Source of the DNA: a virus | Lineage: Monodnaviria > Loebvirae > Hofneiviricota > Faserviricetes > Tubulavirales > Inoviridae | Virus record (IMG/VR): IMGVR_UViG_2600254997_000002 | Length of the DNA: 7,781 nt | Reading direction: 5' to 3' (one strand) | Shown here: one piece after another, positions 1 to 7,781 of the stretch | Layout: every line of letters starts with the position of its first letter | Position numbering within the stretch: position 1 is the stretch's first letter | Notes under the pieces: generated by a model | Databases searched by the model: none | The model's input: only the letters and a program-made list of their open reading frames with translations | What the model was told of the DNA's origin: nothing | Program-made: the position numbers and the translations under genes

Positions 1-335
<335 letters not shown>

Positions 336-1220: not shown

Positions 1221-3535
<2,315 letters not shown>

Positions 3536-3546
3536 AAATCACCCTC

Positions 3547-3837
<291 letters not shown>

Positions 3838-3851
3838 TCACCACCTGATTA

Positions 3852-5501
<1,650 letters not shown>

Positions 5502-5505
5502 TTCA

Positions 5506-5676
5506 TCACCAGTAAAAACTAAATGGTTTTACAATTCGACGGAAATCCTGATCGGCTTTTTCAAGAATAACTGAAACAACATATTCTTCAATGGTTGTAT
5601 TTTTATTGTAAATAATTCTTTCTATCTGCTCGATAGTGTATTTCGGCAATTTAACTTTAAATTCTTGAGTAGACAT
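5506..5676 (-). CDS. hypothetical 56-aa hydrophilic protein (not in the ORF track)
   Basis: Hand translation: [59 protein letters not shown] at 5674-5676 (complement) with GAGG 4 nt upstream; TGA at 5506-5508, 4 nt before the pIII ATG. Confidence 0.4.
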
Positions 5677-5766
5677 AAAACCTCACAAATTAGATTTAAA
5701 CCCAATGACGCAACATAACCCACAAAGGGAACCAAACATCATAAAAATAAAATCAAACATAAATAT

Positions 5767-5797
5767 CCAAAAAAAGGGCGGAATATCCGCCCTTCCT
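5767..5797 (-). terminator. rho-independent terminator immediately after the major coat gene
   Basis: Minus transcript: stem GGGCGG / CCGCCC (plus 5776-5781 / 5787-5792) with a 5-nt loop, followed by a run of seven U (plus A-run 5769-5775). Ff phages have a strong terminator in the same position after gene VIII. Confidence 0.65.
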
Positions 5798-5810
5798 CAT
5801 AAAAAACAAC

Positions 5811-6059
5811 TCAGATACTTCTGATGGCTCCCCATACTTTACGAACGCCAGCAAAAGTCAGATAAACTGTAACTCCTGCAACACCGATAGAAAGAATAAC
5901 AGCAGAAACAGAAGACATATCAATGCTGTTAGTCAATGATGAAAAATCGACTGTACCAGCAAAAGACGGAGATACAGCAAGAGCAGAAGCAGCGGAAAAA
6001 GATAAAGCTGCAACTTTCTTATCAACACCCTTAAAAAAATTGGTCATTTTTGCAAACAT
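5811..6059 (-). CDS. major coat protein (pVIII-like), start revised to the first ATG
   Basis: The track ORF (5811..6086) starts on TTG. The first ATG is at 6057-6059 (complement), 8 nt after SD AGGAGA (complement of 6068-6073). Signal peptide MFAKMTNFFKGVDKKVAALSFSAASALAVSPSFA, then an about 48-aa mature peptide with a hydrophobic core and basic C-terminus. Confidence 0.75.
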   Translation of the reverse strand: MFAKMTNFFKGVDKKVAALSFSAASALAVSPSFAGTVDFSSLTNSIDMSSVSAVILSIGVAGVTVYLTFAGVRKVWGAIRSI

Positions 6060-6099
6060 AATTAAAGTCTCCTTATTAAACTCCAAATTGTGGAAATAA

Positions 6100-6234
6100 T
6101 CATGCCAAGAAAAAACAAAATACTGGCAGTGAAAATCCCGTTAAAAACGCCGAGGAATAAATCCCCGACACATCAGGTATCCCCACGCAAATAGCATTAA
6201 TTTGCGTGGAAACTGAATCCAAATTAACAGACAT
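6100..6234 (-). CDS. small hydrophobic protein (44 aa), candidate pVII/pIX-like minor coat protein (not in the ORF track)
   Basis: Hand translation: MSVNLDSVSTQINAICVGIPDVSGIYSSAFLTGFSLPVFCFFLA. Starts 4 nt after the stop of the upstream gene. Its stop overlaps the ATG of a 13-codon ORF (MIISTIWSLIRRL, 6062-6103). Position matches gene VII/IX of Ff phage. Confidence 0.3.
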   Translation of the reverse strand: MSVNLDSVSTQINAICVGIPDVSGIYSSAFLTGFSLPVFCFFLA

Positions 6235-6238
6235 AAAA

Positions 6239-6583
<345 letters not shown>

Positions 6584-6611: not shown

Positions 6612-7781
<1,170 letters not shown>

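What the first reader, a model, noticed from the sequence alone, without database searches (positions are those of the whole stretch)
6062..6234. Candidate gene VII/IX analogues: 44-aa hydrophobic ORF and overlapping 13-codon ORF
Seen in sequence: between the pV-like and coat genes there is a 44-aa ORF with a hydrophobic C-terminal half, starting 4 nt after the upstream stop. Its TGA overlaps the ATG of a 13-codon ORF (GCATGA), which ends 2 nt before the coat ATG. Established knowledge: Ff phages encode two roughly 32-aa tip proteins (pVII, pIX) at exactly this position, translated by coupling. Inference: the 44-aa ORF is a pVII/pIX-like tip protein. The 13-codon ORF may be only a coupling element. 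The SD for the 44-aa ORF is weak, consistent with coupled translation.
Basis: partly seen in the sequence, partly recalled or inferred. Interest (0 to 1): 0.4.

Follow-up and report, generated by a model that had tools for sequence, protein, structure and literature searches.

The report
Frameshift-split small gene beside phage coat gene
The 44-codon and 13-codon reading frames are two halves of one conserved 57-codon filamentous-phage gene, split here by the loss of one T in a run of seven; the intact gene encodes a small membrane protein that is plausibly, but not demonstrably, a virion tip protein.

Summary
The arrangement is not the native one. Every relative examined except one has T7 where the window has T6 (+ strand A-run 6110..6115). 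With T7 the two frames form a single 57-aa ORF. It is a real gene: 13 of 19 variable sites among 15 alleles are synonymous. Homologues of 54-128 aa occur in E. coli, Klebsiella and Salmonella inovirus prophages. In every context examined it lies directly upstream of the major coat gene, behind at least three unrelated replication modules. The predicted product has a disordered acidic N-terminus, one 30-residue helix and a basic C-terminus whose tail co-varies with the cognate coat protein's tail. No sequence similarity to Ff pVII or pIX, CTXphi Psh or any Pfam family was detected. The tip-protein reading therefore rests on position and chemistry only. The 13-codon "coupling element" is the gene's displaced C-terminus. 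The window's allele lacks half the helix and the basic tail, so it is either a defective copy or a homopolymer sequencing error. A separate conserved 24-25-aa hydrophobic ORF after the coat gene (5760..5683) is a second tip-protein candidate.

The parts
6062..6234 (-). Frameshifted allele of the conserved 57-aa gene (orf57): 173 nt here, 174 nt in relatives.
   Evidence: Relatives encode MSVNSDSVSTQINAICVGIPDVSGIYSSAFLTGFSLPVFCFFLGMIISTIWSLIRRL as one ORF. Of 19 variable sites in 15 alleles, 13 are synonymous. Homologues of 54-128 aa were found.
6100..6234 (-). 44-aa ORF: codons 1-43 of orf57, then Ala and a premature TGA created by the frameshift.
   Evidence: The truncation removes residues 44-57 of a predicted helix spanning 27-56, including the RR tail.
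6110..6115 (-). Homopolymer (T6 on the coding strand), T7 in nearly all relatives. This is the site of the 1-nt deletion. In frame it reads U UUU UUC.
   Evidence: One search shows a 180-nt match in all 27 complete genomes.
6062..6103 (-). 13-codon ORF: the displaced last 13 codons (Met45-Leu57) plus the TAA stop of orf57.
   Evidence: Same frame and sequence as the C-terminus of the 57-aa ORF in relatives. No SD before its ATG. Six of 7 variable sites are synonymous in this frame.
6069..6074 (-). AAGGAG Shine-Dalgarno of the coat gene, embedded in codons Ile54-Arg55-Arg56 of orf57, 9 nt before the coat ATG.
   Evidence: duplex -9.3 kcal/mol. The same arrangement is seen in distant relatives.
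5811..6059 (-). Major coat protein gene (82 aa precursor with signal peptide).
   Evidence: phrog_2186 at 2.9e-14; Pfam Phage_Coat_B is weak, E 0.0068 and below its cut-off.
6239..6574 (-). 111-aa gene in the pV position (last gene of the replication module). Its stop lies 4 nt before the orf57 ATG. It matches phrog_14411 (unknown function); a DNA-binding role was not shown.
   Evidence: The module boundary at about 6235-6240 is shown.
5763..5798 (-). Terminator-like hairpin (GGGCGG-AUAUU-CCGCCC within a longer stem) followed by U7, just after the coat gene.
   Evidence: -18.9 kcal/mol, z = -4.0. Not picked up by the consensus scan.
5683..5760 (-). Conserved 25-aa hydrophobic ORF (MFDFIFMMFGSLCGLCCVIGFKSNL), a second candidate small virion protein.
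   Evidence: A 24-25-aa ORF sits in the same position across the clade. Invariant residues are M1, G10, C13, G20.

Best explanation
**What is shown**
- The window is an E. coli inovirus prophage with its genes on the minus strand.
- Positions 6234..6062 are a frameshifted copy of a conserved 57-codon gene (orf57). It is the first gene of the structural/morphogenesis module and lies directly upstream of the major coat gene.
- A single T missing from a T7 run makes the ribosome stop at codon 45. The last 13 codons are left behind as an apparent mini-ORF.

**What is predicted**
- The native product has a disordered, acidic N-terminal 26 residues with no signal peptide. It then forms one 30-residue hydrophobic helix and ends in Arg-Arg-Leu.

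**What is inferred about the intact gene**
- It is translated at low level by coupling to the stop of the preceding gene.
- It inserts in the inner membrane with the N-terminus out and the C-terminus in.
- It is taken into the virion as a coat-like minor protein at the end that emerges first, with its basic tail towards the DNA. This is functionally analogous to Ff pIX/pVII.
- The 3' end of the gene also carries the coat gene's Shine-Dalgarno sequence.

**What is inferred about this allele**
- The 44-aa product lacks half the helix and the basic tail, so it is probably non-functional.
- This copy is either a decaying prophage or carries a homopolymer sequencing error.
For: **Split gene**
- The alignment shows T6 against T7.
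- T7 is present in 27 of 27 complete E. coli genomes, in the 10 contexts, in 5 of 5 metagenome contigs and in 6 of 7 IMG/VR contigs.

**Coding**
- 13 synonymous against 6 mostly conservative changes.
- Homologues at 26-45% identity keep the core SVVCVDFxNAIDFxSQSF, then the hydrophobic helix, then IRS[VIL].

**Structural-module membership**
- The gene is always immediately upstream of the coat gene in the contexts examined. Upstream of it lie Rep_trans, Phage_GPA or G2P_X_C replication modules, and the homology breakpoint sits at its start codon.

**Architecture**
- AlphaFold2 predicts a helix at residues 27-56 with pLDDT 83-94.
- The hydropathy window 36-54 scores 2.17, with flank charges of -2 (N side) and +2 (C side). 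M13 pVII scores 2.16 with -3 and +1.

**Coat-like tail**
- The last 8-10 residues resemble the cognate coat tail more than non-cognate tails (permutation fraction 0.0028 and 0.0014).

**Coupling**
- No SD at optimal spacing.
- The ATG lies 3-5 nt after three unrelated upstream stops.

**Ff reference features** were taken from PMC10175506.
Against: - There is no detectable homology to Ff pVII or pIX, to CTXphi Psh, to any Pfam family or to any PDB sequence or fold.
- The protein is 57 aa, and up to 128 aa in relatives, against 29-33 aa for pVII/pIX.
- Exporting a roughly 100-residue N-terminus without a signal peptide, as the long forms would require, is unusual.
- The basic C-terminal codons double as the coat gene's SD, so their conservation is not purely a protein constraint.
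- The tail co-variation test uses six phages that are not phylogenetically independent.
- There are no virion proteomics or expression data.
- Whether T6 is a mutation or a sequencing error cannot be decided from the sequence.
Confidence: 0.55

Rival explanations
1. orf57 is a real membrane protein of the morphogenesis module but not a virion component. It could be an assembly-site accessory acting with pI/pIV or with coat insertion, or a host-directed membrane protein.
For: - There is no homology to any known virion protein.
- Long homologues carry a 70-100-residue acidic N-terminal domain, which is hard to reconcile with a compact round tip.
- The more distant inoviruses have a different pre-coat family, phrog_3679, annotated as unknown function.
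Against: - The gene is tightly linked to the coat gene across module swaps.
- Its C-terminal tail co-varies with the coat tail.
- Its architecture (acidic N-terminus, single helix, basic C-terminus) is that of inovirus capsid proteins (with Ff features from the paper read).
Confidence: 0.22
2. A 44-aa tip protein is followed by a 13-codon upstream mini-ORF that serves to couple ribosomes into the coat gene.
For: The ATGA overlap and the 2-nt gap to the coat ATG are real in this window. One other contig (L019) has the same T6.
Against: - All 27 complete genomes and all other contigs have the fused 57-aa ORF.
- L019 has three further homopolymer contractions that break the coat, pV-like and pII genes.
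- The 13 codons evolve as protein-coding sequence in frame with the rest.
- The coat gene has its own strong SD.
- The 44-aa product ends in the middle of the predicted helix.
Confidence: 0.03
3. The gene is intact in the organism and T6 is a homopolymer-length error of sequencing or assembly. The split then exists only in the record.
For: - The difference is a 1-nt contraction of a 7-nt homopolymer, the classic error class.
- The only other T6 sequence (L019) has four such contractions.
- L001 has a similar contraction in the coat gene.
Against: - Outside the pIII repeat region, the window differs from its nearest relatives by only this one homopolymer indel despite many long runs.
- It carries two other private changes that are not homopolymer-type: an inserted base at 6653 that frameshifts the pII tail, and the S5L substitution in orf57 itself. 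These fit real decay.
Confidence: 0.35
4. The T-run is a slippage-prone switch. T6 alleles are OFF or leaky, and full-length protein is restored by -1 ribosomal frameshifting on U UUU UUC or by transcriptional slippage. That could suffice for a protein needed in about five copies per virion.
For: In the window's frame the run reads U UUU UUC. A -1 shift there regenerates exactly the wild-type sequence ..CFFLGMIIS.. (from the sequence). Recurrent homopolymer indels occur in this prophage family.
Against: - No stimulatory element was identified.
- T6 is rare (2 of more than 45 sequences).
- The run is not conserved as T7 in distant homologues (T5-C-T6 in L021).
- Frameshift efficiency was not tested.
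Confidence: 0.05

Closest known systems
Ff (M13/f1/fd), IKe, I2-2 and If1 minor coat proteins pIX and pVII
   Same: - The gene lies between the ssDNA-binding-protein gene and the major coat gene, abutting the coat gene as gene IX does.
- There is no signal peptide.
- The product is a single hydrophobic helix of about 30 residues with an acidic N-side and a basic C-side.
- The start has no good SD and sits a few nt after the upstream stop, as for gene VII.
- The C-terminal tail resembles the cognate coat tail. By inspection of the sequences, Ff pIX tails also resemble pVIII tails.
   Different: - No detectable sequence similarity.
- The protein is 57 aa (54-128 in the family), against 29-33 aa.
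- There is one gene at this position rather than two.
- A strongly conserved juxtamembrane motif (VCVDFxNAIDFxSQSF) has no Ff counterpart.
- Virion location is untested.
Psh of Vibrio phage CTXphi
   Same: A small hydrophobic ORF lies immediately upstream of, and abuts or overlaps, the major coat gene (cep) of a dif-integrating inovirus. It is regarded as a structural protein on positional grounds (PMC3545932, read; ORF seen).
   Different: No significant similarity (hhalign probability 3%). Psh itself is poorly characterised.
phrog_3679 proteins (86-88 aa) of Inovirus D_HF5_61 and Dulem virus 52
   Same: Same position between the ssDNA-binding-protein gene and a coat gene of the same PHROG (phrog_2186). 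They have a C-terminal membrane anchor whose tail mirrors the cognate coat tail, and are followed by the same 24-25-aa ORF after the coat gene.
   Different: No significant profile similarity to the orf57 family (hhalign probability 1.4%). Function unknown.

Membership tests
orf57 family (uncharacterised 54-128-aa proteins of enterobacterial inovirus prophages) | Sequence similarity over the core motif, the helix and the IRSx tail. | tested here: met
   The 44-aa query hits 57-aa proteins at 5.6e-17 and 1.9e-16, 86-89% identical. The profile search returns 40 proteins. Alignments are A2 and A10. The window copy is truncated by the frameshift.
orf57 family | Gene immediately upstream of the major coat gene in an inovirus structural module. 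| tested here: met
Ff pVII | Detectable sequence or profile similarity to pVII of M13, If1, IKe or I2-2. | tested here: not met
   hhalign probability 0.4-0.8%, aligning only a 6-9-residue CFxLG patch. No hit to the pVII PHROGs that IKe pVII itself hits.
Ff pVII | About 30-aa single-helix protein with acidic residues near the N-terminus and arginine as the last residue (bioRxiv 10.1101/2023.12.30.573655, read). | tested here: not met
   The protein is 57 aa. Acidic residues are present (D6, D21). R55 is invariant but is followed by two more residues.
Ff pIX | Detectable sequence or profile similarity to pIX. | tested here: not met
   hhalign probability 0.8-1.2%.
Ff pVII/pIX (functional class: leading-tip proteins) | Gene located between gene V and gene VIII. 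| tested here: met
Ff pVII/pIX (functional class) | No signal peptide, a single alpha-helix, and a positively charged C-terminus (PMC10175506, read). | tested here: met
   Met for the intact 57-aa form. Not met for the window's 44-aa product, which loses the C-terminal half of the helix and both arginines.
Ff pVII/pIX (functional class) | Present in about five copies at the virion end that emerges first, and required to start assembly at the packaging signal. | not testable with these tools
   Needs virion proteomics, immuno-EM and deletion/complementation.
Ff gene VII-type translational coupling | Initiation depends on termination of the upstream cistron. | tested here: inconclusive
   Sequence only: a weak, mis-spaced SD (-5.1 kcal/mol against -9.3 for the coat gene) and an ATG 3-5 nt after three unrelated upstream stops. 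Coupling itself was not measured.
CTXphi Psh | Sequence similarity. | tested here: not met
   hhalign probability 3%.

The most novel reading that the evidence does not exclude
orf57 and the 24-25-aa ORF that follows the coat gene may be the so-far unrecognised pair of leading-tip proteins of a large clade of integrative enterobacterial inoviruses. This is a group in which pVII/pIX homologues are reported as absent. On this reading orf57 is a coat-like subunit whose N-terminus, 27 to about 100 residues and variable between phages, is naturally displayed at the round tip.
Probability: 0.3. Interest if true: 0.55.

Novelty: new member of a known kind. Interest (0 to 1): 0.33.

Why it matters
- Small hydrophobic inovirus genes are routinely missed by annotation. 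RefSeq leaves this gene unannotated in both records examined. In one of them it calls an antisense ORF instead of the frameshifted coat gene.
- The literature states that integrative filamentous phages lack recognisable pVII/pIX and may build their leading end differently (bioRxiv 10.1101/2023.12.30.573655).
- A conserved, coat-linked 57-aa gene plus a conserved 25-aa gene give two concrete candidates to test in E. coli, Klebsiella and Salmonella prophages.
- For this window specifically, the gene is broken, so the copy may not make virions. The attractive two-ORF "coupling" layout is an artefact of a 1-nt deletion.

Tried and rejected
- **Pfam and PHROG scans of the 44-aa ORF.** Nothing significant.
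- **tblastn and megablast against deposited phage genomes.** No match for the ORF, the coat protein or the whole window. The nearest deposited phages share only about 39% pI identity.
- **Whole-library phmmer with the 57-aa protein.** One true distant relative (P0005) plus repeat-protein noise.
- **Pattern scan of GTDB species-representative genomes.** No confirmed relative.
- **Homology to Ff pVII/pIX.** Rejected. The eye-catching VxCFxLGxI match to pVII is only a 6-9-residue patch.
- **Homology to CTXphi Psh.** Rejected.
- **Homology to phrog_3679 pre-coat proteins.** Rejected.
- **orf57 as a paralogue of the coat protein.** The shared ID[FM]SS motif and tail are only weakly supported (hhalign P = 0.01; 3 of 200 column shuffles reach the score). 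Kept as an idea, not a claim.
- **25-aa ORF as a pIX homologue.** Promising with five sequences (probability 79%, 1 of 300 shuffles). It faded with seven (probability 9%, 11 of 250 shuffles), so it is not claimed.
- **PDB sequence search and Foldseek of the AlphaFold2 model.** Only chance-level sequence hits (E at or above 0.07) and no fold match. A single helix is uninformative for this.
- **Rfam.** No RNA family in the window.
- **Promoter and terminator scan.** Promoter-like sites are at chance level. The scan missed the hairpin after the coat gene, which folding confirmed.

Full report
**Context**

The window is an inovirus prophage with its genes on the minus strand.

| Gene | Coordinates | Evidence |
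|---|---|---|
| Replication initiator | 7781..6612 | Rep_trans |
| 111-aa gene in the pV position | 6574..6239 | phrog_14411, unknown function |
| The finding | 6234..6062 | see below |
| Major coat gene | 6059..5811 | phrog_2186 |
| Hairpin plus U7 | about 5798..5763 | |
| 25-aa hydrophobic ORF | 5760..5683 | see "A second candidate" below |
| 56-aa ORF | 5676..5506 | only weak HTH-type matches |
| pIII-like gene with Gly/Ser/Thr repeats | 5501..3852 | phrog_7187 (unknown function); position and repeats |
| pVI-like gene | 3834..3547 | DUF2523 |
| pI-like gene | 3535..2477 | Zot |
| pIV secretin | 2480..1221 | Secretin |

Near-identical prophages lie next to hipBA in E. coli chromosomes, often in tandem. 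No deposited phage genome is similar at the DNA level. The nearest deposited phages are metagenomic inoviruses with about 39% pI identity.

**Checking the observation**

- The 44-aa ORF runs from 6234 to 6100 and starts 4 nt after the upstream stop.
- GCATGA creates an overlapping 13-codon ORF (6103..6062).
- That ORF ends 2 nt before the coat ATG.

A 44-codon ORF alone is unremarkable here: the window has 101 ORFs of at least 20 aa.

**The key result: one gene split by a 1-nt deletion**

Searching the 44-aa sequence returned only two proteins. Both are 57 aa, and their last 13 residues are exactly the "13-codon ORF". Alignment with close relatives shows one difference responsible: the window has T6 where the relatives have T7 (+ strand A-run 6110..6115).

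| Source | T7 | T6 |
|---|---|---|
| Complete E. coli genomes with the locus | 27 of 27 (180-nt match to the 179-nt query) | 0 |
| Contigs from the exact-protein look-up | 10 of 10 | 0 |
| Metagenome contigs | 5 of 5 | 0 |
| IMG/VR contigs | 6 of 7 | 1 (L019) |

L019 also has homopolymer contractions that break its coat, pV-like and pII genes. It is therefore either error-laden or decayed.

In the T7 allele the sequence reads ..TGT TTT TTT CTT GGC ATG ATT.. (C F F L G M I). With one T missing it reads ..TGT TTT TTC TTG GCA TGA. The ATGA "overlap" is simply Met45-Ile46 read out of frame.

**Is the 57-aa ORF a gene?**

Yes, with high confidence.
- Among 15 distinct DNA alleles there are 19 variable sites. 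Thirteen are synonymous and six give mostly conservative replacements. Within the last 13 codons, 6 of 7 are synonymous.
- A profile search finds 40 proteins. These include many 54-64-aa forms, for example from Klebsiella oxytoca, and 77-128-aa forms from Salmonella.
- The short forms share an almost invariant core: SVVCVDFxNAIDFxSQSF, then a hydrophobic helix, then IRS[VIL].
- All are labelled hypothetical or uncharacterised. None has a Pfam domain.
- RefSeq does not annotate the gene in the two E. coli records examined.

**Where it belongs**

In every context examined the gene lies immediately upstream of the coat gene. Among the E. coli-type contigs it follows three unrelated replication modules:
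- Rep_trans plus a 111-aa gene
- Phage_GPA plus a 141-aa gene
- G2P_X_C plus Phage_DNA_bind plus a 76-aa gene

DNA homology between such mosaics breaks at about 6235-6240, which is the orf57 start codon. The gene is therefore the first gene of the structural/morphogenesis module.

**Predicted protein**

- AlphaFold2 gives a disordered N-terminus and a single helix at residues 27-56 with pLDDT 83-94.
- The best hydropathy window (36-54) scores 2.17, with a -2 N-side and a +2 C-side. M13 pVII scores 2.16 with -3 and +1.
- The window's 44-aa product ends mid-helix and has no basic tail. I infer it is non-functional.

**Translation signals**

- The orf57 start has no SD at useful spacing. It lies 3-5 nt after the stop of whichever gene precedes it. 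This is compatible with coupling of the Ff gene VII type (established knowledge), but coupling was not measured.
- The ATG of the 13-codon ORF has no SD.
- The coat gene has a strong AAGGAG at 6074..6069, embedded in the Ile-Arg-Arg codons of orf57. The same embedding is seen in distant relatives. Conservation of the basic tail is therefore partly a nucleotide constraint.

**Comparison with known proteins**

- pVII and pIX sequences were taken from M13, IKe, I2-2 and If1. Profile comparison gives about 0.4-1.2% probability.
- There is no similarity to CTXphi Psh or to the phrog_3679 pre-coat proteins of the nearest deposited inoviruses.
- PHROG hits to two roughly 80-aa families of unknown function are marginal (E 0.008 and 0.018).
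- PDB sequence and fold searches are empty or at chance level.

Membership in the pVII or pIX families is therefore not supported. What remains is analogy in position, lack of a signal peptide, a single helix and charge asymmetry (features as described in PMC10175506).

One additional observation favours a coat-lattice protein. The last 8-10 residues of the pre-coat protein resemble the cognate coat tail more than non-cognate tails:

| Phage | Pre-coat protein tail | Coat tail |
|---|---|---|
| Window | IWSLIRRL | VWGAIRSI |
| Dulem virus 52 | IIETIKRA | IVKAVRAA |

The permutation fractions are 0.0028 (last 8 residues) and 0.0014 (last 10). This used six phages that are not independent. By inspection of the sequences, Ff pIX tails likewise resemble pVIII tails.

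**A second candidate**

A 24-25-aa hydrophobic ORF follows the coat gene throughout the clade, including the distant Inovirus D_HF5_61 and Dulem virus 52. Its invariant residues are M1, G10, C13 and G20. Its similarity to pIX looked significant with five sequences but not with seven. I record it as a candidate only.

**State of this copy**

Besides the orf57 deletion, the window has two other private changes.
- An inserted base at 6653 replaces the last roughly 22 residues of pII, giving 389 aa against 398 aa in relatives.
- A private S5L change lies in orf57 itself.

These favour real decay over sequencing error, but the question cannot be settled from the sequence. A -1 shift on U UUU UUC would regenerate the wild-type protein exactly. 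This is a sequence observation, untested, and I rate it unlikely to be a designed feature.

**Verdict**

The tip-protein idea is plausible by analogy and is not supported by homology. The coupling-element idea is wrong.

Noticed in passing
window 5683..5760 (- strand): A conserved 25-aa hydrophobic ORF (MFDFIFMMFGSLCGLCCVIGFKSNL) lies just after the coat-gene hairpin. A 24-25-aa counterpart sits in the same position in all relatives examined, down to phages with about 39% pI identity. It is unannotated in the E. coli RefSeq records examined. Similarity to Ff pIX is suggestive but not robust.
   Followed up: partly
window 6653 (pII gene 7781..6612, - strand): A private 1-nt insertion relative to L001, L017, L018 and L019 frameshifts the last roughly 22 residues of the replication protein (389 aa here, 398 aa in relatives). 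This is a second sign that the copy is decaying or imperfectly sequenced.
   Followed up: partly
L001 (NZ_AP041805.1) and L019, at the position matching window 6033..6039: The coat gene is frameshifted by an A7-to-A6 contraction. In the RefSeq record PGAP then annotates an antisense 45-aa ORF (WP_001436442.1) instead of the coat gene. Both tandem copies in L001 carry the same change.
   Followed up: partly
window about 6235..6240: The recombination junction between the structural module and at least three unrelated replication modules (Rep_trans, Phage_GPA, G2P_X_C) falls exactly at the orf57 start codon.
   Followed up: partly
L001 and L002 (E. coli chromosomes): The prophage is inserted beside hipBA (from memory, near the chromosomal dif site; not checked here), as full or partial tandem copies. 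A related Klebsiella prophage (L041) instead has an IS110-family transposase gene at its left end.
   Followed up: no
window 5506..5676 (- strand): A 56-aa non-hydrophobic ORF lies between the 25-aa ORF and the pIII-like gene. It is conserved (56-63 aa) in the E. coli relatives but absent from the Salmonella-type (L020, L021) and Klebsiella (L041) relatives. It gives only weak HTH-type matches.
   Followed up: no
L041 5893..5988 (Klebsiella oxytoca prophage): An extra 31-aa hydrophobic ORF (MLLVLMSLPVFGLLWGAFCFVLMQRLFCIDG) lies directly upstream of the orf57 homologue. It is another pVII/pIX-sized candidate and has no counterpart in the window.
   Followed up: no
L040 5953..6030 (CTXphi): A 25-aa hydrophobic ORF (GTG start, MLELWLGLFGSAVIIIGFVSGLYLV) follows cep and overlaps the orfU start, with Gly at position 10 as in the 25-aa family. 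It may be a frame echo of the OrfU signal peptide.
   Followed up: no
window 4180..4450 (pIII-like gene, - strand): A long, variable Gly-Ser/Gly-Thr repeat encoded by an 18-nt-type tandem repeat. Its length differs between relatives by multiples of 6-18 nt.
   Followed up: no
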